Shown piece by piece: positions 7,087 through 42,965 of a stretch of DNA of 64,000 bases. The position numbers were made by a program, and so were the translations under genes. The notes beneath the pieces are model-generated. The model saw nothing but the letters and a program-made list of their open reading frames with translations, was not told the origin of the DNA and did no database searches. This stretch comes from Escherichia phage vB_Ec-M-J: sequence record OQ718158.1. One strand, 5' to 3'. Numbering within the stretch: the stretch's first letter is position 1; each line of letters opens with the position of its first letter.

Positions 7087-7632
7087 ATGAGTATACTTAA
7101 TGAAATGTTAGATTATAATGATGAAGAGCTAAATGAAGCTCGTCCATATAGTCGTTCACAAAGTGCAGTAGATAGTGCAAAAGGAAAAGTAAAAGGCTTT
7201 TTCGGTAGTGGTCAAGTAGAACAAGGTGCACAAGAAGTTGGTGCAGAAGCAAACCGTCTTTGGGCTGAATTTAAACGCTATGTTGGACGCAAATACGGTA
7301 AAGCACAGCCATCAGTACCATATGCTGATGTTGCACAATTCTTCAAAGGAAATAACCTTGATATAAAACATTTGGGCAATAACAGTCGTCGTACTTTTAC
7401 TCCTAAAGATGTTGGTTCTGCTCTATTGGCAGCAGCACGTGACTTGATGAATGATTATCGTGATGATGATAAAGGTGAAGAACAACAACGTCCTGCACCA
7501 CAAGCTCAACCTGACAATGCTCCACAATCAGCACCACAGGAACAGCCAAAAGCACAAGGTTCTAGTATCCCTGATGCTCTACAAAAATTAAGTCCAGAGC
7601 AGCGTGAACAACTTTTGCGTATGCTTTCTTAA
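7087..7632 (+). CDS. hypothetical protein with a Q/P-rich C-terminus
   Basis: 181-aa ORF with AGGA Shine-Dalgarno. Confidence 0.7.
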   Translation: MSILNEMLDYNDEELNEARPYSRSQSAVDSAKGKVKGFFGSGQVEQGAQEVGAEANRLWAEFKRYVGRKYGKAQPSVPYADVAQFFKGNNLDIKHLGNNSRRTFTPKDVGSALLAAARDLMNDYRDDDKGEEQQRPAPQAQPDNAPQSAPQEQPKAQGSSIPDALQKLSPEQREQLLRMLS

Positions 7633-7645
7633 GGAGAATCAACAC

Positions 7646-9157
7646 ATGGATAATTTTTTCAGTACTGAAACTACCACAGTACCTAATGGATATGTATATA
7701 CTTCTCACACTGGTGGCAAATATGTATTTCTAGAAGGTTTCTGGTTTAACGACAATAATATGTTAATGGTAGACCCTAAAAAATACCCATCCATGTACGC
7801 AAGTGCTCGACAACAGATTGTTGAGCACAATCTATCTTCTAGTGAATATAAAATTGGTAACAAATATATTCTTGAAGGTAAAGAGTGTACATTTCTTGGT
7901 GAAAATCGTTTCAATTCTAAAGATGGAATTCTACTAACTGAAAGTGAAATTATCACTGAACTAATGGCAGATGACCACCGTGTATATAATGTTTCAAAAG
8001 AAACTCTACAAAAAGAATGGAACTCCCTAAAATTCTATATCCTTCCACCATATGCTGATGATATTTCTATTCCAGCAGGTATGGAAGTTAGTGGATTTAA
8101 ATTCATCCCTAAAAATCACCGTTTTGTTGATGCAAAATCTGGACGTCCAGTTGACCCAGCAATGACACGTAAACTTTCCGATGAAGGTATGCGTATTGCT
8201 CGCCAATTAGCACCAAAAAACAAACTAATTCCAATTAAATCTACTTTAGTACAAGGTAATACTCGTTCCGAATGGAATGGTAAAGAATTTTGTGATAATG
8301 ATGGTAATGTTGTAATTCCAGAACAAAATGCACATGTAATCTTTAATGCATATCAGCAATTTGTTAAGGCTAACCCTGGTGATTTTCCTTCACTAACTGG
8401 TGATCATGAATCAGGTGAACAACGTTTTGGTTCAGGTGAAAAGCCAGAACAACCCAAACAACCAGTAAAACAGCCAGTATTCGCAACAAAAGAATCCATT
8501 AATGAAGCAGATGAAGAGATTGAAGAAACTGAATCTGTTGTGGTTCCACATGGTTACCGCATTACTTCAAATAAAGGTAAAACATACATTAAACAAAAAA
8601 ATGCATGGTTTGATGTAGAAACTAAAAAACAACTAAATTCTAGTGCTGCAAAAAGTGTTGAACGTGCTGCTCAACGTGATATAATTCGCCATAATAGTTC
8701 TGGTGCAATGAAAATCGGAACTAAAGTAAAATCTAAGAAAGGCACAGAGTATTCTTATATCGGTGGTAACCGCTTTATTAGTGCTGATGGTAAATTGATT
8801 CCAAAATCAACTGCTGATGACATTCTTGCTCGTTATGATGCAGAACGTGCTGATAAGAAAGAAGAAGAACCTGAAGATAAAGTAGATGCTGAAGTATCAA
8901 GTACTGATGTAGTTGAACCAAAAGCTGAACCTACTAAAGAACCAGAACCTGTATCAGAGCCAGAACCTGAAGTTCCTGCTCCTGGTGATGAAGTTCAATC
9001 ATTGGCTTCACGAATTAAAGAATCACCTTACGCTAAGAAAATTACAGTACTCTTAACGCGTGGTGATGAGGTTTCTCTAATTGCTGCTGACATTTTACTA
9101 TCTGGTAAAAAGGATGAAACAGTGCAAATTTTAAAATCATTAAATAAGAATGATTGA
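7646..9157 (+). CDS. hypothetical protein with an internal duplicated module and a Pro/Glu-rich linker
   Basis: Track start 7604 is GTG and overlaps the upstream gene; ATG 7646 has an AAGGAGA Shine-Dalgarno. Duplicated segments PNGYVYTSHTGGKYVF... / PHGYRITSNKGKTYIK... and KIGNKYILEGKECTFLGENRFNSKDG / KIGTKVKSKKGTEYSYIGGNRFISADG. Confidence 0.7.
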   Translation: MDNFFSTETTTVPNGYVYTSHTGGKYVFLEGFWFNDNNMLMVDPKKYPSMYASARQQIVEHNLSSSEYKIGNKYILEGKECTFLGENRFNSKDGILLTESEIITELMADDHRVYNVSKETLQKEWNSLKFYILPPYADDISIPAGMEVSGFKFIPKNHRFVDAKSGRPVDPAMTRKLSDEGMRIARQLAPKNKLIPIKSTLVQGNTRSEWNGKEFCDNDGNVVIPEQNAHVIFNAYQQFVKANPGDFPSLTGDHESGEQRFGSGEKPEQPKQPVKQPVFATKESINEADEEIEETESVVVPHGYRITSNKGKTYIKQKNAWFDVETKKQLNSSAAKSVERAAQRDIIRHNSSGAMKIGTKVKSKKGTEYSYIGGNRFISADGKLIPKSTADDILARYDAERADKKEEEPEDKVDAEVSSTDVVEPKAEPTKEPEPVSEPEPEVPAPGDEVQSLASRIKESPYAKKITVLLTRGDEVSLIAADILLSGKKDETVQILKSLNKND

Positions 9158-9179
9158 TAACTAAAAGGATTTATTTAAA

Positions 9180-10169
9180 ATGGCTAAAAAAATTAATGAA
9201 GCACAAGTTAAAATCGATATCGCAGGACTAGAATCTGAAGATCTAGAAACACTATCTCGTATGCTTGCACTAGCTGGTCAAGCCGAGCGTCAAGCTTCTC
9301 CTGTTGCTGCTCCAGTTCCTTCTATGGGGTCAATGACCCCTTCTCTACCACCAATCGCTCCACTCGATATGGATTCAATTGGTGCTGGTGCAGAAGAAGA
9401 AGTTGGTGGTTCAATGGATGGTGCAATTGATGCACCTGTTGAAGACCCATTAGAAGTTGCTGCTGACTCACTATCTGCTGAAGCTGGTGATTTTGGTGGT
9501 GATTCTGAAGAAGTAAGTATGGATGCAGAGTTCGAAGAGCCTGGTGTTGCAGATGAAGAAGAGTTTTCTTTAGATCTTTCCGGTCAACCTCAACTAGAAT
9601 CAGTTGAAGAAGAGGAAGAAGAAGAAATCATCGAAGAAGAATTCGATTTCAGTCGTATGCTATCTCTAGCTGGTCTTCAAGACGAACCAGAAGATGAATA
9701 TTCAGTAGAAGGTAACCCAGATACTGAAGTTAAAGTTGAAGAAAACACTTTCCTACCAGACCTAACCATCTCTGAAGATGAAGAACAAGGTGACAGTACT
9801 GATTTTGGACCTTACAACACTGAAGCTGATGCCGTTCGTGACGGTCAAGCTAAAACTAATGGTGTAGAAGGTGACCACTTTGTTGTTATTACCAAGGGTA
9901 ACAAGTTTTACTGGAGACGTGTCGTTGATGAAGATGTTGACAACCGTCCTGAACCAGAGTACTATGACAATGACGGTAACGAGAACCGTGTTCACAAATT
10001 TGAACCTAAGTTCCCAGGTACTGCTCTAGGTGACAACCCACTCAATGTTAATGAGAGTGATGAGTCCGTGGAAGGTAACGAAGAACTAGAAGATGAAAGC
10101 GATGAAGAAGTCGAAGACATTTTCGAAAGTCTCCAGAAGAAATATCAACAATTTCTAGGGGACAAATAA
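9180..10169 (+). CDS. highly acidic protein (Asp/Glu-rich; repeated SRMLxLAG motif)
   Basis: 329-aa ORF with AAAGGA Shine-Dalgarno; long E/D tracts (EEEEEEEIIEEEFDF); LSRMLALAGQ and FSRMLSLAGLQ both present. Confidence 0.7.
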   Translation: MAKKINEAQVKIDIAGLESEDLETLSRMLALAGQAERQASPVAAPVPSMGSMTPSLPPIAPLDMDSIGAGAEEEVGGSMDGAIDAPVEDPLEVAADSLSAEAGDFGGDSEEVSMDAEFEEPGVADEEEFSLDLSGQPQLESVEEEEEEEIIEEEFDFSRMLSLAGLQDEPEDEYSVEGNPDTEVKVEENTFLPDLTISEDEEQGDSTDFGPYNTEADAVRDGQAKTNGVEGDHFVVITKGNKFYWRRVVDEDVDNRPEPEYYDNDGNENRVHKFEPKFPGTALGDNPLNVNESDESVEGNEELEDESDEEVEDIFESLQKKYQQFLGDK

Positions 10170-10170
10170 G

Positions 10171-10563
10171 ATGGGATATAATTATCGTGAATTGGTTGAA
10201 GCATTAGATGAAATCACTTCTAGTGAAGAATCTACTGAAGAAGAAAGTTTTGCAGTTGAGACTCCTTCTGATGCTGTTGCCACCGATTTACTTAAAGATA
10301 TCACCGAATGCCTTATCCACATTGTGGATAAGGTTAAATCAGGTGAAGATCAAAAAGAAATCGTAGAAAAGCTTCAAAAAGCGTGTGACATTTTATCGGA
10401 TGTTCGATATAATGATGAAAGTACTGAAGAAGTTGATGAATCCACTGATTGCTGCTTCGGAACCAAAGATATGGGTCCGAAAATTGGTAAAGATGGTGTC
10501 CAAGACTATAAAGTTAAAGATGCTCCTTCATATGCAGCAAGACAGGGTTTCGTGGGGATGTAA
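10171..10563 (+). CDS. hypothetical acidic protein
   Basis: 130-aa ORF starting 2 nt after the previous stop, with GGGGA Shine-Dalgarno. Confidence 0.65.
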   Translation: MGYNYRELVEALDEITSSEESTEEESFAVETPSDAVATDLLKDITECLIHIVDKVKSGEDQKEIVEKLQKACDILSDVRYNDESTEEVDESTDCCFGTKDMGPKIGKDGVQDYKVKDAPSYAARQGFVGM

Positions 10564-10566
10564 TTT

Positions 10567-10944
10567 ATGATTCCTGAACCACACAACAGTACTGAATTTC
10601 AAAACGATGTACTTTTAAAAGTTAGAGAAGTACATGGATCAGACGCTGAATTAACAGACCGTATGCTTCTGATGTCAATTTTTGAAAATTTCAGAACTGG
10701 CGGTGGTTTAAGACTTAGCAAGTTTGGATATACAATTTGTAAAGAAAACATTCTTTATGAATTTACAAAAATCCCCTTGCAAAGAGAGTTCAAAAGTTCT
10801 ATAATCTTTACATCGCTTGATAGGATATGTACTTCACCCTACTATGTAGAAGGGCAGTACATATACCTCTCGGACGCAATGATAGTTACAGAGTTAACAT
10901 TGTGTGGTGATGATTTTAGAATGTTATTTTCGATGCACATGTAG
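10567..10944 (+). CDS. hypothetical protein
   Basis: 125-aa ORF, 4-nt gap after the previous stop, GGGGA Shine-Dalgarno. Confidence 0.6.
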   Translation: MIPEPHNSTEFQNDVLLKVREVHGSDAELTDRMLLMSIFENFRTGGGLRLSKFGYTICKENILYEFTKIPLQREFKSSIIFTSLDRICTSPYYVEGQYIYLSDAMIVTELTLCGDDFRMLFSMHM

Positions 10945-10969
10945 CTTCGAAAATAAAGAAAAAAAGATG

Positions 10970-10997
10970 TTGACAACGCCGAATGATGTGTTATAAT
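10970..10997 (+). promoter_or_regulatory. strong sigma70-type promoter P1 (TTGACA-N16-TGtTATAAT, A-rich upstream)
   Basis: Exact -35 TTGACA at 10970-10975 and exact -10 TATAAT at 10992-10997 with extended TGn; A-tract upstream. Confidence 0.75.
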
Positions 10998-11061
10998 GAC
11001 CATCACGAAGCAAGTTTTCAAAATCACAAGATGTGAGATTGAAAAAGAAATAAAAAAGTTG

Positions 11062-11089
11062 TTGACAAGCCTGAACGATGTGATATAAT
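11062..11089 (+). promoter_or_regulatory. strong sigma70-type promoter P2 (TTGACA-N16-TGaTATAAT), tandem copy of P1
   Basis: Exact -35 at 11062-11067 and -10 at 11084-11089. Flanking sequence is nearly identical to P1 (gatgtg.TATAATGACCA). Confidence 0.75.
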
Positions 11090-11150
11090 GACCACATCAA
11101 GACGGCAAAGAGAAATGCCTTTTTAAATACACGGATGATTCATGAAGTAA

Positions 11151-11194
11151 CAAAGGAACTGATAAGTTAAAAATTCTTTTAACACAGTTCCTTT
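11151..11194 (+). promoter_or_regulatory. leader hairpin (9-bp stem aaggaactg / cagttcctt, ~26-nt loop) in the 5' UTR of the ATPase gene
   Basis: Perfect inverted repeat between P2 and ATG 11261. Confidence 0.4.
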
Positions 11195-11260
11195 ACTTTT
11201 GCCCACGGATTGGCTATAATAGAAACCTAAACGATTTTATCCAACAAAAGGAAAATATAC

Positions 11261-12589
11261 ATGTCTACTCAAAACAACGATATCCTGAACGTAAAACTGA
11301 CTCCTAAGAAAGCTAAAGAAGCAATGGCACTGGCTGACATGATTCAAGATAGCCTGATGATTTGGGGTAGCCCTGGTATCGGTAAATCTGCTATCGCACG
11401 TCAATACGCTGATGAGAACTACCCACTGCGTAAAGATAACGTGGCAAAAATTGAGTTCATGAAACAACAAATCGAAGCTGATACTGAAAATGCTGATCAA
11501 CTTCGCCGTGAACTGGCAGCGTTTGAAGCCAAACTAATCGACCAAGACACTAACTTTATCGATTTCCGTTTGTCTCAGATTGAACCAAGTGACCTTCGCG
11601 GTATCCCAGTTCCAGAGAAAGTGTTCCTTGATATGGATGGTAAGCAACTGATTGAATCTGAACTGGCTAGTGCACAAGATTACATCGCTGAAACAGCAGT
11701 TGTGTGGGCAGCACCTAAAGTACTGAAGCTGTCTCCAGATTGGAAAGGTGTTATTCTGTTTGACGAAATCAACTCTGCAATGCCGATTGTACAGGCAGCG
11801 TCTTATCAGCTAATCCTCGACCGTTGTGTTGGTGAGATGAAGCTACCTAAGACTGCACTGATTCTCGCAGCAGGTAACCGTGAAACTGATGGCGGTGTAA
11901 CGTTCTCTCTAGCTACACCACTGCGTGACCGTATGACCCACATCGAAATGATTCCTTATCATCAAGATTGGATTAACGATTATGCGATTGGTAAGCGTTT
12001 GAACCCAGCAACTGTAGCGTTCATCAACAACACTGGTGCTAAACACTTCAACACCCTTAGCCCACAAGATCCTTCTCACTGTGGTGGTACTTCTCCACGT
12101 TCATGGGAAGCAGTAGCACGCTACGAAGATCTGAAGAAAGTTAAGAACATTGATAAAGAAGTGTTCCGTGCGATGATTGCAGGTCGTGTTGGTGAAGGCG
12201 TAGCAACTGAATACATCGAGTATGTTGATAACGTAGCTAAACTACCAGATACCATGTCCATCCTACAGGGTGAGATTAAAGAGATTGATGCTTCGCTTGA
12301 TATTTCCGCGAACTACTTCATCACTCTGAATCTGGTTTACAAAATTATCGACCTCTACAATGAGAAGCAAGAACAACGTCTACCAGTGGAAGATTGGGGT
12401 AAGCTGTGCAACAACTTCATCACCTTCCTAGACCATAACTTCTCTGCAACTCAAGCAGAACTGGCAGTACTGGCGATTCGTACCATCACGCTTCATAAAG
12501 TAGCGATTACGATTAAAGATGTACCAGCGTTTAAAGACTTCGTTATGAAGTACTCTGACCTAGTACGTAAAGCACGCTCTCTTGGTTAA
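11261..12589 (+). CDS. AAA+ ATPase, MoxR/CobS-like (AAA_5-type)
   Basis: Walker A GSPGIGKS and Walker B ILFDEIN; 442 aa; AAAGGA Shine-Dalgarno; immediately followed by a vWA-domain gene, the typical MoxR/CobS partner. Confidence 0.85.
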   Translation: MSTQNNDILNVKLTPKKAKEAMALADMIQDSLMIWGSPGIGKSAIARQYADENYPLRKDNVAKIEFMKQQIEADTENADQLRRELAAFEAKLIDQDTNFIDFRLSQIEPSDLRGIPVPEKVFLDMDGKQLIESELASAQDYIAETAVVWAAPKVLKLSPDWKGVILFDEINSAMPIVQAASYQLILDRCVGEMKLPKTALILAAGNRETDGGVTFSLATPLRDRMTHIEMIPYHQDWINDYAIGKRLNPATVAFINNTGAKHFNTLSPQDPSHCGGTSPRSWEAVARYEDLKKVKNIDKEVFRAMIAGRVGEGVATEYIEYVDNVAKLPDTMSILQGEIKEIDASLDISANYFITLNLVYKIIDLYNEKQEQRLPVEDWGKLCNNFITFLDHNFSATQAELAVLAIRTITLHKVAITIKDVPAFKDFVMKYSDLVRKARSLG

Positions 12590-12613
12590 TAATTAAAAAG
12601 AGTGTTGACAAGG

Positions 12614-12640
12614 AGGATACCACATGGTATCCTTCTTTTA
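12614..12640 (+). terminator. rho-independent terminator or attenuator between the ATPase and vWA genes
   Basis: aggatacc-acat-ggtatcct hairpin followed by tcttttatc. A TTGACA hexamer sits just upstream at 12605-12610. Confidence 0.5.
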
Positions 12641-12664
12641 TCTTAACTAAACGAGGAAATACAA

Positions 12665-14074
12665 ATGTCAGATAAACGTTTCAGTGATGTTACTCCGGCT
12701 CTCCAGAAAGAATGTCAAGATCGTCTGATCTTAGCTCGCACATCTTTAATGCTAACATTCCCATTCTTTGGTGTACTGGCTTCTCGTCTGCGTCCAGTTG
12801 CAAACAACACATGGTGTCGTACTTTGGCTGTAGATGGTAAGCATTTATTCTACAACGTAGAATTCATCATGGGTATTCAGGACCAATCCAAAAAGTCAGC
12901 ATACGAAGAAGCAATTCGTGAGAAACATCCTGAAGTAACTGAAGAACAACTTAAAGAAATGACAGAAGGTTTGACCGATGAAAACCTGATTGCAGTTATC
13001 TGTCATGAGATTCTTCACTGTGCATATGACCACTTCTTGCGTCGTGGTATGCGTGACCCGCAGCGTTATAACCGTGCTGCTGACTATGCAATTAACCAGA
13101 TTCTTGTTCGTGATAAAATTGGTAAAATCCAAAGCCAATGGCTGTACGATAAAAAGTACGATGGTATGACTGCTGAAGAGATTTATAACATTCTCGAAGA
13201 AGAAGATAAGCAGGATCAAGACGGAGAAGGTGAAGGAAATCCACAGGCTGGTAGTGGTGAGGGTGAAGGTAAATCACGCGGTACTTTTGGTGATATCAAA
13301 GATGGTAAAGGCAAAGGTACAACAATTGACCAGCATGACGTTCCACAAGAAGGTCAAGAGGGTGGTTCAAGTGAGAAACAAAAACGTGATTATATGGATG
13401 ATTTCAAAACAGCAATGATGAATGCTGCTCGTGCAGGTGGTACTCCTGCTGAAATCGCACGTATGATTAACAACTTCAAAGAACCTAAGATTGACTGGCG
13501 TTCCAAACTTCACCGCACACTGCGTAGCTGGTTGAAGTCTGATGCAACTTATCAAAATCCTAATCGTCGTTCATGGGGTGCTGGTTTTGGTAGTTCTGGT
13601 TCATTCTACGGGAATCCAATCTTCCCTGGTATGAAACCAGATGATGATATTGATATTGCAATTGCACTAGATGCATCCGGTTCTATCTCTGAAGATATGC
13701 TCCGTGATTTCATCAGTGAAGTACTGGGTATCACTAAGCAGTTTAAACAATTTAAAATCCGTATCATGACGTTCGATACTGAAGTTTATACTGTTAAAGA
13801 TTACAAAACTGGTGAAGAGAGTAAGATTCTCGAATATCCAGTGAAAGGTGGTGGTGGTACTGACTTTGAAGCAGTATGGGTTCATATGAAGCATGACAAC
13901 TATAAGCCTAAACAGCTTATTATGTTTACCGATGGTGAGCCGTGGCAGTCATGGGGTGATCCTGATTACTGTAAGACACTGTTTGTTATCCACAGTAATC
14001 CTAACAAACAAGCACCATTTGGCGAAACTGTACACTACGAATATGAAGCTGACAAAAAGCGTCAACGTAGCTAA
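12665..14074 (+). CDS. vWA-domain protein with N-terminal HExxH putative metallopeptidase (DUF2201/CobT-like)
   Basis: HEILH motif in the N-terminal half; C-terminal vWA MIDAS-like residues DASGSIS ... GGGTDF ... FTDGEP; Gly-rich acidic linker; GAGGAA Shine-Dalgarno. Confidence 0.8.
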   Translation: MSDKRFSDVTPALQKECQDRLILARTSLMLTFPFFGVLASRLRPVANNTWCRTLAVDGKHLFYNVEFIMGIQDQSKKSAYEEAIREKHPEVTEEQLKEMTEGLTDENLIAVICHEILHCAYDHFLRRGMRDPQRYNRAADYAINQILVRDKIGKIQSQWLYDKKYDGMTAEEIYNILEEEDKQDQDGEGEGNPQAGSGEGEGKSRGTFGDIKDGKGKGTTIDQHDVPQEGQEGGSSEKQKRDYMDDFKTAMMNAARAGGTPAEIARMINNFKEPKIDWRSKLHRTLRSWLKSDATYQNPNRRSWGAGFGSSGSFYGNPIFPGMKPDDDIDIAIALDASGSISEDMLRDFISEVLGITKQFKQFKIRIMTFDTEVYTVKDYKTGEESKILEYPVKGGGGTDFEAVWVHMKHDNYKPKQLIMFTDGEPWQSWGDPDYCKTLFVIHSNPNKQAPFGETVHYEYEADKKRQRS

Positions 14075-14086
14075 GTACTAAATAAT

Positions 14087-14117
14087 GAGAACGGAAAATT
14101 CCGTTCTCTACTTTTTT
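14087..14117 (+). terminator. rho-independent terminator
   Basis: gagaacgg-aaaatt-ccgttctc perfect hairpin followed by tacttttttc. Confidence 0.75.
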
Positions 14118-14121
14118 CAGC

Positions 14122-14149
14122 GGGACAGCTTGGAAAAAGGTGATATAAT
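14122..14149 (+). promoter_or_regulatory. sigma70-like promoter (GGGACA-N16-TGaTATAAT)
   Basis: Extended -10 TGATATAAT at 14141-14149 with a partial -35 GGGACA; the same architecture occurs at 63587-63628. Confidence 0.5.
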
Positions 14150-14183
14150 TATATTTGTAACAACATACATGGAGAGTATTAAA

Positions 14184-14414
14184 ATGGAACAAGAACCAGA
14201 AAAAATTCAACTAACACTAATCGACCTAATCAACGCTGCTAAAATCATGGAAGCTGCTGTGGCTCGTAATTCATTTAAAGTCGAAGAACTTGTTGATGTT
14301 GCTCCAGTCGTATCTAAGTTTGTTGAGTTTGCTAACTCTGCACTCGAAGATATCAAAGCACAAGAAGAAGCTGATGCTGCACAAGCTGCTGCTGAACAAA
14401 ATAAAGGAGAATAA
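14184..14414 (+). CDS. small hypothetical protein (76 aa, Ala/Glu-rich helical)
   Basis: ATG 14184 has a GGAGAG Shine-Dalgarno and lies downstream of the terminator and promoter; the longer track ORF from 14085 would read through the terminator. Confidence 0.6.
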   Translation: MEQEPEKIQLTLIDLINAAKIMEAAVARNSFKVEELVDVAPVVSKFVEFANSALEDIKAQEEADAAQAAAEQNKGE

Positions 14415-14416
14415 TA

Positions 14417-15070
14417 ATGGCTATTCGTCACGTTGGTGTAGTACGTAATACGGGTTCACGAGTATTTGTGGTATGGCGTTCACTCCCTGATGATCCAGAA
14501 CATTGTCTCATTGTTTATCGCGACTCACTTCCTGAAGCATATGCTCAATCTGTTGCAGATTTAGTAATGAATCAAGGTCAATCGAATGTGGATTTGTGGG
14601 AAGTTATGCATAAGATTGGTCATCTAGACGGTCGCAAAATGCTAGATGTTCTTCATAATCTACAACATTTGCGTCGTGCACGTACTTGTGATATTGATAT
14701 GCATGTTGGTGGAAACAGTAAGATTTCTCTTGATGTTCTAAACAACGCAATCAATGATAATGATGCTAAAAAACATGAAGATGGTAAAGTTAAAGAATAC
14801 AACCCATTCAAGCCACAAGAAGTTGATACTTCTGTTGAAGAAGCTACCATTGTTGAGCAACTACTTAAAGATGCACAACGTTATGAGCAGTTGGCTAAAG
14901 AGCACTTTGAACGTGCTTACAACTTAGAACCATCTCTACGTCCACAAGTTCAAGCAACACCTGGAGCACCTGATAGCAAAACTTTCTATATTGAAATCCC
15001 AGAAGGAATTTCACAAACCAAAGCAATTGAGAAAGTTAAACAGGCATTTGCAGAACGTAAAGCAAAATAA
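14417..15070 (+). CDS. hypothetical protein
   Basis: 217-aa ORF with AAAGGAGA Shine-Dalgarno. Confidence 0.7.
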   Translation: MAIRHVGVVRNTGSRVFVVWRSLPDDPEHCLIVYRDSLPEAYAQSVADLVMNQGQSNVDLWEVMHKIGHLDGRKMLDVLHNLQHLRRARTCDIDMHVGGNSKISLDVLNNAINDNDAKKHEDGKVKEYNPFKPQEVDTSVEEATIVEQLLKDAQRYEQLAKEHFERAYNLEPSLRPQVQATPGAPDSKTFYIEIPEGISQTKAIEKVKQAFAERKAK

Positions 15071-15075
15071 TATAA

Positions 15076-15672
15076 ATGAATAAAATAGAATTAGATGAAG
15101 CAATCAATGGTTTATCTAATGTATGTTTCAGTGGCGGGGCAGCAGGTGCTGACCGCCTTTTTTCTATCTATGCAAAAGACAATGGATTTGAAGTAATAAA
15201 TTTTTCATTCAAGGGTCACCAAAGCAGCGTAGATGAAAATACTATATTAGAAATTCCACCCAATATCCTTTGTGATAGTTCAATATTAAAACAATTAAAC
15301 ATTGCATGTTACTCTTTACGCCGTAAAGTTCCTAAGCCTGGTTCGTATGTATATAACTTACTTGCAAGGAATAGTTACCAGATACTTAATACAAAAAGAG
15401 TATATTGTATTGCAAATATTACATCACCTACGCAAGTTTCAGGTGGAACTGCATGGGCCGTACAGATGTATATGGATTCAGTTGACAATCCAGAAATATA
15501 TTGTTATGATATGAACACTCGCTCTGTATTTTATTATGATACAGTACTGAAAGAGTTTACTGAAACATTCTCAATACCAGCACCACACGGTAACTGGACT
15601 GGGATTGGTTCACGTAATGCTACACAAAAACACATGGAACACTTTATTACATTTTTCAAGGACGTAAAATGA
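15076..15672 (+). CDS. Rossmann-fold protein with a DprA/SLOG-like glycine motif (FSGGAAGAD)
   Basis: 198-aa ORF; N-terminal beta-strand plus SGGAxGxD loop resembling the DprA/YpsA/LOG (SLOG) nucleotide-binding signature. Weak Shine-Dalgarno. Overlaps the thymidylate synthase start by 4 nt. Confidence 0.45.
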   Translation: MNKIELDEAINGLSNVCFSGGAAGADRLFSIYAKDNGFEVINFSFKGHQSSVDENTILEIPPNILCDSSILKQLNIACYSLRRKVPKPGSYVYNLLARNSYQILNTKRVYCIANITSPTQVSGGTAWAVQMYMDSVDNPEIYCYDMNTRSVFYYDTVLKEFTETFSIPAPHGNWTGIGSRNATQKHMEHFITFFKDVK

Positions 15673-16598
15673 AACAACTACAAGAACTATATCAAAGAAT
15701 TCTGGATCAAGGTGTCGAAAGCGTTGATCGTACTGGTGTTGGCACTATCAAGCTAATCGGACAACAAATGCGTTTTGACCTAAAAGAAGGTTTCCCAGCA
15801 GTAACTACTAAACGTTTGGCTTGGAAAGCAATGACTTCAGAATTGTTATGGTTTATTGAAGGTTCTCACGATGAGCGTCGTCTGTGTGAAATTTTACACG
15901 GGACACGTGATGTAGAAAAGAAAACAATTTGGACAGACAACTACCTTAATCAAGGTGTAAGCCTTGGTTATTCTGATGGTGAGCTTGGCCCAGTTTATGG
16001 TAAACAATGGCGTGAATGGGAAGATTATAAATTCAGTTCCAGTACTGAAGAAATTCAAGAACTAAAAGATAAAGGGTATAAAGTTATTGATTATACTGGT
16101 TCACATGGTGTTATTATGCGTCGTGTAACTGACCAGCTAAAACAAGTTATTGAAGGTATCAATACTGATCCATACGGTCGTCGTCACATTCTAAGTGCAT
16201 GGAACGTTGGTGAGCTTGATGCTATGACTTTGCCACCCTGTCATAGCTTTGTGCAGTTTTGTGTTGTACAGGGTAAACTAAGTTGTATTCTTCATCAACG
16301 TAGTGCTGATCTATTCCTTGGTGTGCCATTTAATATTAGTAGTTACTCACTACTAACTCATATGATTGCACAAATTACAGGGTTAGATGTTGGTGAATTT
16401 ATTTGGAATGGTGGCGACTGCCATATCTACCAAAACCATATTGAACAAGTAAAAGAGCAACTCCAACGTGAACCACGTACATTACCAGAATTATGGCTAG
16501 ATCCTACTATTACTGATATTGAAGATTTCACTATGGATTCTTTCAAATTAGTTAATTACGATCCAATGCCAACAATCAAAGCACCAATGGCTGTATAA
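15669..16598 (+). CDS. thyA: thymidylate synthase
   Basis: Hallmark motifs TTKR, GPVYGKQWR, SAWNVGELD, LPPCHSF (catalytic Cys), QRSADLFLGVPFNI and GGDCHIYQNH; ~30-aa insertion relative to E. coli ThyA. Confidence 0.95.
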   Translation: MKQLQELYQRILDQGVESVDRTGVGTIKLIGQQMRFDLKEGFPAVTTKRLAWKAMTSELLWFIEGSHDERRLCEILHGTRDVEKKTIWTDNYLNQGVSLGYSDGELGPVYGKQWREWEDYKFSSSTEEIQELKDKGYKVIDYTGSHGVIMRRVTDQLKQVIEGINTDPYGRRHILSAWNVGELDAMTLPPCHSFVQFCVVQGKLSCILHQRSADLFLGVPFNISSYSLLTHMIAQITGLDVGEFIWNGGDCHIYQNHIEQVKEQLQREPRTLPELWLDPTITDIEDFTMDSFKLVNYDPMPTIKAPMAV

Positions 16599-16605
16599 AA
16601 GAAAA

Positions 16606-16629
16606 GGGAGACTTATGTCTCCCTTTTTT
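16606..16629. terminator. bidirectional rho-independent terminator between convergent genes
   Basis: gggagac-ttat-gtctccc hairpin flanked by an A-run and a T-run. Confidence 0.75.
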
Positions 16630-40610: not shown

Positions 40611-40638
40611 TTGACAAACGCAAAGAATGTGATATAAT
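40611..40638 (+). promoter_or_regulatory. strong sigma70-type promoter (TTGACA-N16-TGaTATAAT), third copy of the P1/P2 family
   Basis: Exact -35 at 40611-40616 and -10 at 40633-40638 with conserved gaatgtgaTATAATG context. Confidence 0.75.
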
Positions 40639-40676: not shown

Positions 40677-42965
40677 ATGAATCTTACCCAATTATTCAAA
40701 AAAAGCGACGAACTGGCAACTTCTCTGGGTCATACCTTCTTGACTATTGACCATCTAAGTGCTACAGTACTGACAATCGATAGCATCAAAGCAGTATTTG
40801 AAGATATGAACATCGATGCAGACAACCTACACGGTCGTTTGATTGCATATCTGAAGAATACAACATTCCCACATGCACCTAAAAGTGCTGATGGTGATGA
40901 AGCGAACCGCACATCACTTCTCGTGAACCGTGTAGTTCAGGAACTTTCTAAGAAATCAGTAATTGAGCAACTTAAACGTGATGATTTCTCAATTGATGCT
41001 TATTTTGTACTGTTTGAGTGTTTGTCCTTCCCAAATACTGCACTAGAAGCAGCATTGCGTGAAGAGGGTATCACTTGTACTGAAGCAGCACGAACTCTAC
41101 AGAAGCACGTAGAAGCAATCGACAACGGAATCAACCTTCAAAGCATTAGTGATGAGCCAACTGGGGAGAAAAAAGTGGCACAACAGCAACCATCGTCCAA
41201 ACAAAAAGGTTTAGAAGATTACACCACTAACCTAACCGCACTTGCAAAAGAAGGTAAACTTGACCCAATGATTGGTCGCCAGAAAGAGCTTTCTGCACTG
41301 ATTGAAACTCTGGCCCGTAAGACTAAGAAGAATGCCATCCTGACTGGTGAAGCTGGTGTTGGTAAAACTCAAATCATTGATGGTCTAGCACAGGCAATCG
41401 CTGATGGTGAAGTACCAGAGCATCTTAAAGATGTTGAAATTCTGTCTCTGAACGTAGGTGCACTGACGGCTGGTACTAAGTACCGTGGTGAGTTCGAAGA
41501 ACGTATCGATAACCTACTAAAAGAACTGAAGAAACGTGAAAACACTATTGTGTTCATCGATGAAATCCATATTATGGTTGGTGCTGGTTCAGCAAGCAAC
41601 GGTTCTATGGATATGAGCAACATGCTCAAACCTGCACTATCTCGTGGTGAGATTCGTGTAATCGGTGCAACAACTTACGATGAATATCGTAAAAACATCG
41701 AAAAAGATAGTGCACTAACTCGCCGTTTCATGAAAATTGATGTAGTTGAGCCAACAATTGATGAAACCCGTGCGATTGTGAATGGTTTGAAATCTACTTA
41801 TGAAACTTTCCATAACGTAGAGTTCAGTACTGAAGCAATGGATGCAGTTATTACACTAAGTGATAAGTTCCTGAAGAACAAACACTTCCCTGACAAAGCA
41901 ATCGACCTAATGGATGCGGCAGCAGCGAAAGTACGTTCTCGTGAAACTGATGATAACATCATCACTGTTGCACTGATTCAAGAAGTTGTTGCAGGTATCG
42001 CAAACCTAGATATTAACGTGGTTGCTTGCACTGAAAGTGAACGTATGCGTAATCTACCAGATGCACTGCGTTCTCGTGTATACGGTCAAGAAGAAGCAGT
42101 ACAGAAACTGGTTGATAACGTGATGGTAGCTCGTGCTGGTCTGCGTGATAAATCAAGTGTTCAAGGTGCATTCATGTTTGTTGGTCCATCTGGTACTGGT
42201 AAAACTGAAATTACCAAAGCACTGGCTGATGCAACTGGTTCTGAACTGATTCGTTTCGATATGTCCGAGTTTTCACAGGAACATACTGTTGCTAAACTGA
42301 TTGGTTCACCTCCAGGCTATGTTGGTCACGATTCTGGTAACGGTCTGCTACTCGACAAGATTGAGCAGTTCCCGAATGCAGTACTGTTGCTTGATGAAAT
42401 CGAAAAAGCTGATCGTAAAGTACTACTAACCTTCCTACAGGTTCTGGACGAAGGACGTTTGACTGGTTCACAAGGTAAAACTGTTTACTTCAATAACGTA
42501 ACTGTTATTATGACGACTAACCTTGGTGCAGCAGATTCAACCAAGCGTAGTATTGGGATGAGCGGTAGTGATACAGCACAAGATAAAGCTATTAAAGCAT
42601 TCTTGCCACCTGAATTCATCAACCGTATCGATAGTATTGTGACATTCAAAGACCTAAGCAGCGAAGCGATTGACAGCATCATTGATAAGTTCATGGGTAG
42701 TCTGAATGAACAAATCAAAGACCGCAAAGTTAAAGTTTCCCTGACTAAAGCGGCACGTGAGTGGTTGGCAACAAATGGTGTTAAAGTTGGGATGGGTGCA
42801 CGTCCAATGAAACGCACTATTGAGCAAAACATCCGTGTTCCACTAGCTAAAGAGATGTTGTGTGGTTCTCTAGTTAATGGTGGTAACGTGACGTTTGATG
42901 TGATTGATGGTAAATTGGCTATCAAACCTAAACGCACTAAAGCAGTAGAAAAAGTTATTGCGTAA
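40677..42965 (+). CDS. ClpA/ClpB-like AAA+ unfoldase (two nucleotide-binding domains)
   Basis: Track start 40653 is GTG; ATG 40677 has an AGGAGA Shine-Dalgarno. NBD1 Walker A GEAGVGKT and Walker B VFIDEIH; NBD2 Walker A GPSGTGKT and Walker B LLLDEIEKA; Clp-N-like N-terminal repeats. Confidence 0.9.
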   Translation: MNLTQLFKKSDELATSLGHTFLTIDHLSATVLTIDSIKAVFEDMNIDADNLHGRLIAYLKNTTFPHAPKSADGDEANRTSLLVNRVVQELSKKSVIEQLKRDDFSIDAYFVLFECLSFPNTALEAALREEGITCTEAARTLQKHVEAIDNGINLQSISDEPTGEKKVAQQQPSSKQKGLEDYTTNLTALAKEGKLDPMIGRQKELSALIETLARKTKKNAILTGEAGVGKTQIIDGLAQAIADGEVPEHLKDVEILSLNVGALTAGTKYRGEFEERIDNLLKELKKRENTIVFIDEIHIMVGAGSASNGSMDMSNMLKPALSRGEIRVIGATTYDEYRKNIEKDSALTRRFMKIDVVEPTIDETRAIVNGLKSTYETFHNVEFSTEAMDAVITLSDKFLKNKHFPDKAIDLMDAAAAKVRSRETDDNIITVALIQEVVAGIANLDINVVACTESERMRNLPDALRSRVYGQEEAVQKLVDNVMVARAGLRDKSSVQGAFMFVGPSGTGKTEITKALADATGSELIRFDMSEFSQEHTVAKLIGSPPGYVGHDSGNGLLLDKIEQFPNAVLLLDEIEKADRKVLLTFLQVLDEGRLTGSQGKTVYFNNVTVIMTTNLGAADSTKRSIGMSGSDTAQDKAIKAFLPPEFINRIDSIVTFKDLSSEAIDSIIDKFMGSLNEQIKDRKVKVSLTKAAREWLATNGVKVGMGARPMKRTIEQNIRVPLAKEMLCGSLVNGGNVTFDVIDGKLAIKPKRTKAVEKVIA

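What the first reader, a model, noticed from the sequence alone, without database searches (positions are those of the whole stretch)
11261..14074. MoxR/CobS-like ATPase plus vWA-metallopeptidase pair under tandem strong promoters
A 442-aa AAA+ ATPase (Walker A GSPGIGKS, Walker B ILFDEIN) is followed by a 469-aa protein that combines an HExxH motif (HEILH) with a C-terminal vWA MIDAS motif (DASGSIS, GGGTDF, FTDGEP). This MoxR/vWA architecture is known from cobalt chelatase CobS/CobT and from bacterial NTP-dependent conflict systems, and phage copies are often annotated CobS/CobT-like, but no CobN partner is present here and their role in phages is unresolved. The pair is driven by two tandem consensus promoters, implying very early, high expression. 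It could be a chaperone-like remodeller, a host-takeover factor or an anti-defence module.
Basis: partly seen in the sequence, partly recalled or inferred. Interest (0 to 1): 0.65.

Follow-up and report, generated by a model that had tools for sequence, protein, structure and literature searches.

The report
Known phage ATPase and vWA-peptidase pair
The two genes are the jumbo-phage version of coliphage N4's core genes gp24 and gp25: a MoxR-type AAA+ ATPase and a partner that joins a zinc-peptidase domain to a vWA domain. The pair is very widespread and already described, but nobody has tested what it does.

Summary

The window comes from a Rak2/121Q-like jumbo coliphage (99.8% identical to phage Ecwhy_1). 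The pair is homologous to phage N4 gp24/gp25, two of the 14 core genes of N4-like phages. The phAPEC6 GenBank record already notes these genes as "MoxR ATPase" and "N4 gp25-like protein". Iyer et al. (2021) described the pair as a MoxR-vWA chaperone pair with an N-terminal metallopeptidase. So it is already known, although its function has never been tested.

It is not CobS/CobT, not an HNH endonuclease (a widespread misannotation), and not a recognised defence system.

New details from this work:
- ATPase-then-vWA order held in 78 of 78 viral contigs.
- Three small conserved partners (125, 76 and 217 aa) extend the unit to five genes in this clade.
- Conserved terminator hairpins lie in the 5' leader and between the two genes. 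This tempers the claim of "very early, high expression".
- Tail-fibre-like genes are frequent neighbours.
- The ATPase was found by mass spectrometry in purified virions of two relatives.

Best guess (about 0.4): an ATP-driven remodelling and processing machine for tail or fibre assembly. The main rival is an early/middle role in replication or host takeover.

The parts
10567..10944 (+). 125-aa protein of unknown function. It is a conserved upstream neighbour of the ATPase and is called 'HdfR' in phage fEgEco12 without support.
   Evidence: No Pfam family; phrog_15638, function unknown. phmmer finds 74 ORFs of 100-150 aa. One lies directly upstream of the ATPase in 54 of 79 viral loci.
10949..11002 (+). 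Promoter P1: A-rich UP-like tract, TTGACA (10970), 16-nt spacer with TGTG, TATAAT (to 10997). First copy of a 54-nt tandem repeat.
   Evidence: 12/12 match with TG; direct repeat D1; 3 perfect sites in 64 kb against 0.21 expected. Phage G17/121Q has an 11/12 match at the same place.
11041..11094 (+). Promoter P2, second copy of the 54-nt repeat (hexamers 11062-11089).
   Evidence: 12/12 match with TG. Conserved as 12/12 in G17 and RCIP0023, as GGGACA-17-TATAAT in Munch, and as an extended -10 only in CBB.
11152..11203 (+). Leader hairpin (AAAGGAACUG...CAGUUCCUUU) followed by ACUUUUG. Terminator-like; a possible attenuator or the 3' end of a short leader RNA.
   Evidence: Inverted repeat I5. 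Annotated as a terminator in phage G17. dG -15.4 kcal/mol, and -14 to -15.2 in four relatives whose stems carry compensatory changes. The whole leader folds with z = -3.9. No Rfam family.
11261..12589 (+). 442-aa MoxR-class AAA+ ATPase, homologue of N4 gp24. It carries two lineage-specific insertions (about residues 54-95, helical, and 119-146).
12610..12645 (+). Terminator-like hairpin plus U tract between the two genes.
   Evidence: Scan hit with 12 pairs. dG -17.5; conserved with different stem sequences in G17, RCIP0023, Munch (annotated there as a terminator) and CBB.
12665..14074 (+). 469-aa protein: N-terminal zincin-like metallopeptidase (DUF2201_N, HEILH at 114-118), disordered Gly/acid-rich linkers (about 188-232 and 292-326), C-terminal vWA domain with a complete MIDAS. 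Homologue of N4 gp25.
14087..14118 (+). Hairpin plus U tract after the vWA gene (terminator-like).
   Evidence: Scan hit; dG -14.2; terminators annotated at the equivalent place in G17 and Munch.
14184..14414 (+). 76-aa protein of unknown function, a conserved downstream partner.
   Evidence: phrog_13789, unknown. A profile finds it in 75 of 79 viral loci, between the vWA gene and the 217-aa gene.
14417..15070 (+). 217-aa protein of unknown function, a conserved downstream partner and a candidate third component.
   Evidence: No Pfam family; phrog_15894, unknown. tblastn hits in 65 of 80 viral loci, always 344-738 nt after the vWA gene; 69 of 79 by profile. Not found in the N4, LUZ7, rV5-like or phage G loci. 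The phAPEC6 homologue gp262c gave 1 peptide in virion mass spectrometry.
15076..16629 (+). Rest of the transcription unit in Rak2-like phages only: a SLOG/DprA-like 198-aa protein, thymidylate synthase (15669-16598) and a strong bidirectional terminator (16600-16629).
   Evidence: phrog_768 at 4.7e-27; weak Pfam YAcAr match below its cut-off (E 0.0012, 19.1 bits against 28.2) and Pfam Thymidylat_synt 3.6e-101; terminator. The same gene order is seen in G17, RCIP0023, Munch and CBB.

Best explanation
The two genes encode a two-protein, ATP-driven remodelling and processing machine of the N4 gp24/gp25 family.

Shown here:
- Gene 1 is an AAA+ ATPase of the MoxR/dynein/midasin structural class with all catalytic residues intact.
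- Gene 2 joins a zincin-type HExxH domain, through flexible linkers, to a vWA domain with a complete metal-ion-dependent adhesion site (MIDAS).
- The ATPase-then-vWA gene order is almost invariant across hundreds of viral genomes.

Inferred by analogy with NorQ/NorD, CbbQ/CbbO and midasin:
- The ATPase forms a hexamer that docks one vWA protein.
- The MIDAS captures an acidic residue of a client protein.
- ATP hydrolysis pulls on the linker or the client and presents it to the peptidase for a specific cleavage.
- Leaky terminators before and between the genes keep the ATPase in excess over the peptidase partner.

Most likely biological role (inferred, about 0.4): maturation or assembly of virion parts, above all tail or tail-fibre proteins, as Iyer et al. 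2021 proposed. In this clade it probably works with three small conserved partners (125, 76 and 217 aa). The genes would be transcribed from host sigma-70 promoters, ahead of the late genes.
For: Identity:
- Family matches, alignments, models and fold searches.
- Pairing: ATPase upstream on the same strand in 78 of 78 viral loci and in 17 of 18 genome-collection loci with enough upstream DNA.
- The two proteins have nearly the same distribution among phage records: 808 records for the ATPase and 728 for the partner, with matching genus counts.

Mechanistic precedent: a NorD finger enters the NorQ pore and the ATPase remodels the NorD linker (PMC13036017). Reviews of MoxR-vWA systems include the tail-development pair p618/p892 of the archaeal virus ATV (PMC7159879; PMC7824862).

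Virion link:
1. In all Rak2-like phages examined the pair sits inside the large structural-gene region, between the tail sheath/tube genes and the tail-fibre genes. The CBB paper describes that region as about 70 kb.
2. In the environmental viral clade, a 410-620 aa protein with an Mtd_N tail-fibre N-terminal domain lies two genes after the cassette. It accounts for 15 of the 131 flanking ORFs scanned, and 9 of 10 were verified individually.
3. In N4-like phages a 'second structural module' adjoins the gp24/gp25 homologues (PMC4193335), and LUZ7 has a tail protein gene two genes upstream.
4. The ATPase was detected in CsCl-purified phAPEC6 virions (6 peptides, 19% coverage) and is flagged ESI-MS/MS in the PA5oct record.

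Stoichiometry: conserved terminator hairpins with covarying stems.
Against: - Timing looks early or middle rather than late. The promoters are consensus host sigma-70 type, the class the CBB authors assign to early genes (PMC5259590).
- N4 gp24/gp25 are middle genes (PMC4193335).
- In LUZ7 the pair directly precedes the DNA helicase and DNA polymerase genes, and middle genes there are mainly for replication.
- In N4 the next gene is dCTP deaminase. In a Pseudochrobactrum element the neighbours are DNA ligase and a sliding clamp.
- The virion mass spectrometry may reflect contamination. Thymidylate synthase was also detected in phAPEC6 and RNase H is flagged in the PA5oct record. The vWA-peptidase itself was not detected, and the CBB ATPase is not annotated as structural.
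- The pair occurs in podoviruses, myoviruses and jumbo phages with very different tails.
- The peptidase fold could not be confirmed against solved structures.
- No physical interaction, ATPase activity or proteolysis has been shown for any member.
Confidence: 0.4

Rival explanations
1. The molecular machine is the same, but its clients are not virion proteins. It would act early or in mid-infection on replication or nucleotide-metabolism complexes, or on host proteins (host takeover). Examples would be remodelling or cleaving a host factor, or maturing a phage enzyme complex.
For: - Consensus sigma-70 promoters of the early class.
- Middle-gene status in N4 and position at the head of the replication operon in LUZ7.
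- Recurrent neighbours: dCTP deaminase (N4), dUTPase and ThyA (Delftia phage RG-2014), ThyA and a SLOG/DprA-like protein (window), 5'-3' exonuclease or RNase H, DNA ligase and clamp.
- The only other perfect sigma-70 promoter in the window drives a ClpA/ClpB-type AAA+ protein. This suggests a set of protein-remodelling factors all placed behind the phage's strongest host-type promoters.
Against: - These neighbourhoods differ between lineages, and none of the enzymes co-occurs universally. ThyA is next to the pair only in the 6-7 Rak2-like loci among the 80 viral loci.
- The links to structural genes and the virion mass spectrometry point the other way.
- No candidate client is known.
Confidence: 0.3
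2. The ATPase, perhaps with the 217-aa partner, is a real virion component. It would be delivered with the DNA and act at the very start of the next infection, while the copies made from the sigma-70 promoters serve later in the cycle.
For: The ATPase was detected in CsCl-purified phAPEC6 virions with coverage similar to accepted structural proteins (6 peptides, 19%). The 217-aa homologue gp262c was also detected. The PA5oct homologue is flagged ESI-MS/MS.
Against: - Clearly non-structural enzymes appear in the same lists.
- The ATPase is not annotated as structural in CBB. From my own recollection of the N4 literature, not checked here, gp24/gp25 are not among the known N4 virion proteins.
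- The vWA partner was not detected.
Confidence: 0.1
3. It is an anti-defence or counter-defence module that degrades or remodels a host immunity protein.
For: Early-type promoters. Peptidase plus ATPase is a plausible way to destroy a host protein. MoxR-vWA pairs do occur in bacterial conflict systems (PMC7159879).
Against: - The pair makes up two of the 14 core genes of all N4-like phages and is found in 700-800 phage records across very different hosts.
- Catalytic residues are invariant. This is the profile of a housekeeping function, not a patchy accessory gene.
- No PADLOC match, and no VMAP, iSTAND or effector-type third component.
Confidence: 0.07
4. It is a CobS/CobT-type cobalt chelatase fragment, that is, an auxiliary metabolic gene.
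For: CobS/CobT share the general AAA+ plus vWA architecture. A distant Rhizobiales relative of the ATPase weakly matches the CobS-like phrog_249 (1.3e-10).
Against: - No CobT, CobT_C or CbbQ_C domain, and the partner carries a peptidase domain instead.
- The window ATPase does not list phrog_249 among its matches.
- No CobN among five of the six large ORFs of the window.
Confidence: 0.02

Closest known systems
Coliphage N4 gp24 (AAA ATPase) and gp25 (vWFA protein); core genes of N4-like phages (Schitoviridae)
   Same: Homologous over most of both proteins (29% and 27% identity, E 1e-26 and 1e-32). Same gene order, same PHROG families (1297, 1314), same HExxH + MIDAS + Walker motifs. Function listed as unknown (PMC4193335, PMC2784036).
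   Different: The jumbo-phage ATPase is 90 aa longer, with two insertions between Walker A and Walker B. The partner has an extra insertion and longer low-complexity linkers. It is transcribed from host sigma-70 promoters rather than by N4 RNAPII. The three small conserved partners were not found in the N4 locus examined.
MoxR AAA+ / vWA pair with N-terminal metallopeptidase in group 2.2 jumbo phages (Iyer, Anantharaman, Krishnan, Burroughs & Aravind 2021, Viruses 13:63)
   Same: The same architecture and very probably the same family. The paper proposes a chaperone-cochaperone pair for virion assembly with proteolytic processing.
   Different: That paper gives one sentence of comparative-genomic inference and does not link the pair to N4 gp24/gp25 in the passages retrieved. 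I did not check that its example accessions (ASV44729.1, ASV44728.2) are direct homologues.
NorQ/NorD and CbbQ/CbbO (bacterial MoxR-vWA remodellers)
   Different: NorD and CbbO have no peptidase domain. Their roles are iron insertion into nitric oxide reductase and Rubisco activation. There is no detectable sequence similarity at the level of a profile search against PDB sequences.
Acidianus two-tailed virus p618 (MoxR-type ATPase) and p892 (vWA)
   Same: A viral MoxR-vWA pair tied to tail development, cited as precedent in PMC7159879 and PMC7824862.
   Different: An archaeal virus with no peptidase domain. Homology to the present pair was not tested here.
Aerobic cobalt chelatase CobS/CobT and the phage 'CobS/CobT-like' genes
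   Same: AAA+ ATPase plus a vWA-containing partner.
   Different: A different family. The CobT, CobT_C and CbbQ_C domains are absent, the partner has a zincin domain, and no CobN was found among the five large ORFs scanned.
MoxR-vWA ternary conflict systems (Kaur et al. 2020, eLife 9:e52696)
   Same: A core MoxR-vWA couple, sometimes joined to peptidases.
   Different: Those systems are defined by a third component (VMAP, inactive STAND, FtsH or beta-propeller) and effector domains. None is present here. The present pair is a phage core module.
FtsH (AAA+ module fused to an M41 zinc peptidase)
   Same: A functional analogy only: ATP-driven delivery of a substrate to an HExxH peptidase.
   Different: FtsH is a single membrane-anchored polypeptide of the classical AAA clade without a vWA domain. 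No homology is claimed.

Membership tests
N4 gp24/gp25 family (PHROG 1297 / PHROG 1314) | Significant full-length similarity of both proteins to N4 gp24 and gp25 | tested here: met
   BLASTP E 1e-26 and 1e-32; phrog_1297 at 3e-105 and phrog_1314 at 7e-128
N4 gp24/gp25 family (PHROG 1297 / PHROG 1314) | ATPase gene lies upstream of the vWA gene on the same strand | tested here: met
   Window; N4; 78 of 78 viral loci; 17 of 18 genome-collection loci. rV5-like phages are an exception, with the two genes divergent and about 3.7 kb apart.
MoxR-class AAA+ ATPase | Intact Walker A, Walker B, sensor 1 and arginine residues | tested here: met
   Invariant K42/S43, D168/E169, N206, R207/R224/R280 in 32 sequences
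MoxR-class AAA+ ATPase | Score above the Pfam gathering threshold for AAA_3 (PF07726) or AAA_5 (PF07728) | tested here: not met
   AAA_3 17.9 bits (cut-off 27); AAA_5 15.5 bits (cut-off 22). Relatives at 32-35% identity do carry PF07726/PF07728 in the precomputed annotation.
MoxR-class AAA+ ATPase | Beta-hairpin insertions in helix 2 and before sensor 1 (the AAA+ clade of MoxR, dynein, midasin and chelatases) | tested here: inconclusive
MoxR-class AAA+ ATPase | Works with an adjacent vWA-domain partner | tested here: met
   Adjacent vWA gene. A physical interaction was not testable.
DUF2201_N + DUF2201 (predicted metal-dependent peptidase with vWA-like domain) | Both Pfam domains above threshold and in this order | tested here: met
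   126.8 bits and 77.8 bits, against cut-offs of 23.2 and 26.4
vWA domain with functional MIDAS | DxSxS...T...D motif and the vWA fold | tested here: met
Zincin metallopeptidase | HExxH on an active-site helix, a third zinc ligand, and the zincin fold | tested here: inconclusive
   HExxH is invariant and lies on predicted helix 105-124. Invariant D140 on the next helix (132-149) is a candidate third ligand. No solved structure matched the N-terminal domain. There is only a weak Pfam PhageMetallopep match (E 0.015).
Zincin metallopeptidase | Proteolytic activity | not testable with these tools
   Needs biochemistry
CobS/CobT cobalt chelatase | CobT/CobT_C domains in the vWA protein, a CbbQ_C-type ATPase, and a CobN partner | tested here: not met
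   None of these domains in either protein. No CobN among five of the six ORFs of 800 aa or more in the window; the 3333-aa ORF was not scanned. The rest of the genome was not available.
HNH endonuclease (the common database name for gene 2) | An HNH nuclease domain | tested here: not met
   No HNH family in the Pfam scan down to E 0.1. The name comes from the PHROG 1314 label.
MoxR-vWA ternary conflict / defence systems | A third signature component (VMAP, iSTAND, FtsH, beta-propeller) or a match to defence models | tested here: not met
   PADLOC gave no significant match. The neighbours have no such domains.

The most novel reading that the evidence does not exclude
The conserved unit would be a five-gene module rather than a pair: 125-aa protein, ATPase, vWA-peptidase, 76-aa protein and 217-aa protein. 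It would form a new kind of split, ATP-gated maturation protease. Its ATPase (and the 217-aa partner) would travel in the virion, and its expression would be set by a conserved leader attenuator or short leader RNA placed behind the phage's strongest host-type promoters. Its clients would be tail-fibre proteins, or host proteins cleaved at the start of infection. This would be a widespread phage function (about 25,000 clusters at 50% identity) with no characterised counterpart.
Probability: 0.15. Interest if true: 0.7.

Novelty: already known. Interest (0 to 1): 0.35.

Why it matters
The family is one of the most widely conserved phage gene pairs without a known function. It supplies two of the 14 core genes of N4-like phages. 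It is present in 700-800 sequenced phages from podoviruses to half-megabase phages. It has about 25,000 cluster representatives in metagenomes. No structure or experiment exists for any member.

Finding its client proteins would fill a real gap in phage biology. It would also correct a propagated misannotation ('HNH endonuclease', 'anti-sigma factor').

This particular window adds no new kind of system. Its value lies in the regulatory anatomy (tandem promoters plus conserved terminators) and the three conserved small partners, which point to concrete experiments.

Tried and rejected
- Sequence and profile searches of both proteins against PDB sequences found nothing useful.
- NCBIfam and PADLOC gave no meaningful matches.
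- Rfam found no family in the leader or anywhere in 10800-14300.
- RNAalifold on a MAFFT alignment of five leaders did not recover the hairpin, because the 5' arms were misaligned. It proposed instead a pairing between the U tract and the Shine-Dalgarno region, with only weak covariation. I did not rely on that result.
- An iterated profile search started from the 125-aa protein drifted onto the ATPases. A direct BLASTP shows no similarity, so I used only the first-round hits.
- The T4-type late promoter motif TATAAATA is not enriched in the window (2 sites against 6.9 expected). It could not be used to class the genes as late or not late.
- Literature searches for DUF2201, sll7028/sll7029, COG3864 and the Pfam accessions found no functional study.
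- The CRISPRi-ART paper did not mention N4 gp24/gp25 in its main text, and the 2026 jumbo-phage review does not mention MoxR or vWA.
- The PA5oct paper's main text does not mention the homologues, so no expression class was obtained from it.
- Rejected interpretations: CobS/CobT chelatase, HNH endonuclease, anti-sigma factor, and a membrane protein (the CBB annotation). The N-terminal hydrophobic helices are a confidently modelled, conserved part of DUF2201_N.


Full report

Yes. ORFs 11261..12589 (442 aa) and 12665..14074 (469 aa) lie on the + strand exactly as described.

The second protein matches Pfam DUF2201_N (putative metallopeptidase, 1.5e-36) and DUF2201 (VWA-like, 9.7e-22). The first protein reaches only weak AAA matches in Pfam, with AAA_3 and AAA_5 below their cut-offs. 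It matches the phage family phrog_1297 'ATPase' at 3e-105.

Alignments with 29 and 31 homologues down to about 35-45% identity show that every quoted motif is invariant:
- ATPase: Walker A (G36, G39, K42, S43), Walker B (D168, E169), sensor-1 N206, and arginines R207, R224, R280.
- Partner: HExxH (H114, E115, H118), and the MIDAS residues D336, S338, S340, T399, D423.

The two promoters are perfect 12/12 matches with a TG-extended -10. Only three such sites occur in 64 kb, against 0.21 expected. The two belong to a 54-nt tandem duplication that includes an A-rich upstream tract.

**2. What genome is this, and are the genes known?**

The region is 99.0-99.8% identical to nine deposited Escherichia jumbo phages (Ecwhy_1, fEgEco12, EC.P1 and others) and 87% identical to the 121Q/PBECO4/phAPEC6 group.

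Both proteins are homologous to coliphage N4 gp24 and gp25 (29% and 27% identity; E 1e-26 and 1e-32). These are two of the 14 core genes of N4-like phages, are listed as 'Unknown' and 'vWFA domain', and are described as middle genes (PMC4193335; PMC2784036). The phAPEC6 GenBank record already carries the notes 'MoxR ATPase' and 'N4 gp25-like protein'.

Iyer et al. [quoted passage not shown] They proposed a role in virion assembly with proteolytic processing (PMC7824862).

So the finding is already known as a gene family and as an architecture. I found no experimental work on any member.

**3. Folds**

AlphaFold2 models were built from the alignments.
- The N-terminal peptidase domain had no solved-structure match. 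Its assignment rests on the Pfam match and the invariant HExxH. Invariant D140 on the following helix is a plausible third zinc ligand (inference).

**4. Distribution and pairing**

- tblastn finds the partner in 728 phage records and the ATPase in 808, with almost identical genus counts. They include Rak2-like jumbo phages, N4-like podoviruses, rV5-like myoviruses, PA5oct, Atu_ph07 and Bacillus phage G.
- An exhaustive profile search finds 24,830 cluster representatives (50% identity) at E <= 1e-3 and 6,543 at E <= 1e-30.
- In 78 of 78 IMG/VR loci with enough upstream DNA, the ATPase lies upstream on the same strand, directly adjacent in 74. The same holds for 17 of 18 loci from the genome collection.
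- The genome-collection loci I examined look like phage or prophage DNA. A Pseudochrobactrum locus has DNA ligase and a sliding clamp nearby. A separate 480-kb metagenome scaffold, found through an ATPase homologue, carries T4-like genes.
- rV5-like phages place the two genes divergently about 3.7 kb apart. PA5oct has three small ORFs and a homing endonuclease between them.

**5. What it is not**

- Not CobS/CobT: no CobT, CobT_C or CbbQ_C domain, and no CobN among five of the window's six large ORFs.
- Not an HNH endonuclease: no HNH domain. The name is inherited from the PHROG 1314 label.
- Not a recognised defence system: PADLOC finds nothing, and the neighbours lack VMAP, iSTAND or other third components.

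**6. Expression signals**

The strong promoter is conserved but the tandem duplication is not. G17/121Q has two promoters, Klebsiella phage RCIP0023 has one perfect promoter, Munch has a weaker one, and CBB has only an extended -10. The CBB authors assign such RpoD-like promoters with UP-like elements to early genes (PMC5259590).

Between P2 and the start codon lies a hairpin followed by a U tract (11152-11203).
- It is annotated as a terminator in phage G17.
- It is kept in all five phages with different, compensating stem sequences: GGAACUG/CAGUUCC, GGACUG/CAGUCC, GGCACUG/CAGUGCC and AGCACUGA/UCAGUGCU. The dG values are -14 to -15.4 kcal/mol.
- The whole leader folds better than shuffled sequence (z = -3.9) and matches no Rfam family.

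A second conserved hairpin with a U tract separates the two genes (dG -12.5 to -18.6). Further ones follow the vWA gene and thyA.

The claim 'very early, high expression' is therefore plausible for transcription initiation but is not established for the proteins. The layout suggests attenuation, or a short leader RNA of about 105 nt, and a graded output with more ATPase than partner. That would fit a hexamer working with few vWA subunits, as in NorQ/NorD (PMC13036017). This last step is inference.

**7. More than a pair**

Three small neighbours of unknown function are conserved with the pair in the clade that holds the Rak2-like phages, PA5oct and many aquatic viral contigs:
- A 125-aa protein directly upstream (54 of 79 loci).
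- A 76-aa protein downstream (75 of 79 loci).
- A 217-aa protein downstream (69 of 79 loci).

All five genes are present in 46 loci. The three have no Pfam family and no informative name. They were not found in the N4, LUZ7, rV5-like or phage G loci I held. They are candidates for adaptors or clients.

**8. What does it do?**

Two lines of evidence pull in different directions.

For a virion (tail or fibre) assembly role:
- The pair sits inside the structural region in every Rak2-like phage examined, between the tail sheath/tube genes and the fibre genes. The CBB paper puts that region at about 70 kb.
- In the aquatic clade, a variable-length protein with an Mtd_N tail-fibre N-terminal domain lies two genes after the cassette. 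It accounts for 15 of the 131 flanking ORFs scanned, and 9 of 10 were verified individually.
- N4-like phages have a second structural module beside the gp24/gp25 homologues, and LUZ7 has a tail protein gene two genes upstream.
- The ATPase was detected in CsCl-purified phAPEC6 virions (6 peptides, 19% coverage), and the PA5oct homologue is flagged ESI-MS/MS.
- The archaeal virus ATV uses a MoxR-vWA pair for tail development.

For an early or middle, non-structural role:
- The promoters are of the host sigma-70 type.
- The genes have middle-gene status in N4.
- The pair stands at the head of the helicase/polymerase operon in LUZ7.
- Nucleotide-metabolism genes are frequent neighbours: dCTP deaminase, dUTPase, ThyA and 5'-3' exonuclease.
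- Obvious non-structural enzymes appear in the same virion proteomes.

I rank the assembly/processing role first (about 0.4) and the replication or host-takeover role second (about 0.3). An accessory anti-defence role is unlikely for genes as conserved as the DNA polymerase and the capsid protein.

**9. Verdict**

But the pair is a known, widely distributed phage module whose architecture has been published, so novelty is low. The open question of its function is real and of moderate interest. This window contributes regulatory and neighbourhood details rather than a new kind of system.

Noticed in passing
window 11152-11203: A conserved hairpin plus U tract lies between the tandem promoters and the ATPase start codon. 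Its stem covaries in five Rak2-like phages (dG -14 to -15.4). It is a possible attenuator, or the end of a leader RNA of about 105 nt. There is no Rfam match.
   Followed up: partly
window 12610-12645 and 14087-14118: Terminator-like hairpins lie between the ATPase and vWA genes and after the vWA gene. The first is conserved with different stem sequences in G17, RCIP0023, Munch and CBB. This suggests graded expression, with more ATPase than partner.
   Followed up: partly
window 40611-40638 and 40677-42965: The only other perfect sigma-70 promoter in the 64 kb window has the same TGTGATATAAT extended -10. It drives a 762-aa ClpA/ClpB-type double AAA+ protein (AAA, AAA_lid_9, AAA_2, ClpB_D2-small). 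All three consensus promoters in the window therefore precede AAA+ remodelling ATPases.
   Followed up: partly
window 10567-10944, 14184-14414, 14417-15070: Three small proteins of unknown function (125, 76 and 217 aa) are conserved with the pair in 54, 75 and 69 of 79 viral loci. They give a five-gene cassette. The 217-aa homologue (phAPEC6 gp262c) gave one peptide in virion mass spectrometry.
   Followed up: partly
L038 9831-11123, L045 9784-11055, L097 9901-11271 and similar loci: In aquatic viral contigs, the second gene after the cassette encodes a 410-620 aa protein with an N-terminal Mtd_N (major tropism determinant) domain and a variable C-terminus, like a tail fibre or receptor-binding protein.
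   Followed up: partly
window 12665-14074; public records listed: The vWA-peptidase is widely misannotated as 'HNH endonuclease' (from the PHROG 1314 label), 'putative anti-sigma factor', 'Zn-dependent hydrolase' or 'putative membrane protein'. The 125-aa neighbour is called 'transcriptional regulator HdfR' in fEgEco12. None of these names has domain support.
   Followed up: yes
L025 (Klebsiella phage RCIP0023) 7229-9186: Thymidylate synthase appears split into two pieces by an 'intron-associated endonuclease' gene. This suggests a group I intron in thyA, as in T4 td.
   Followed up: no
L023 (PA5oct) 7096-9857: In PA5oct the ATPase and the vWA-peptidase are separated by three small ORFs and a putative homing endonuclease. 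This shows the pair tolerates being split.
   Followed up: no
window 15076-15672: The 198-aa protein next to thyA matches phrog_768 'DprA-like DNA recombination-mediator' (4.7e-27) and weakly matches the SLOG family YAcAr. The gene is syntenic in Rak2-like phages only.
   Followed up: no
window 9180-10169: A 329-aa, extremely acidic, low-complexity protein just upstream, annotated as a virion structural protein in relatives. The neighbouring 130-aa protein (10171-10563) matches phrog_14971 'virion structural protein' and weakly matches phiKZ internal head proteins.
   Followed up: no
window 11195-11204 with 11243-11252: RNAalifold proposed pairing between the U tract after the leader hairpin (CUUUACUUUUG) and the Shine-Dalgarno region (CAAAAGGAAA). 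This could mask the ribosome-binding site. Covariation support is weak and may simply reflect the complementarity of U-rich and purine-rich sequences.
   Followed up: no
whole window: The T4-type late promoter motif TATAAATA is scarce (2 sites against 6.9 expected), although most of the window encodes structural genes. Late promoters in this phage must look different.
   Followed up: no
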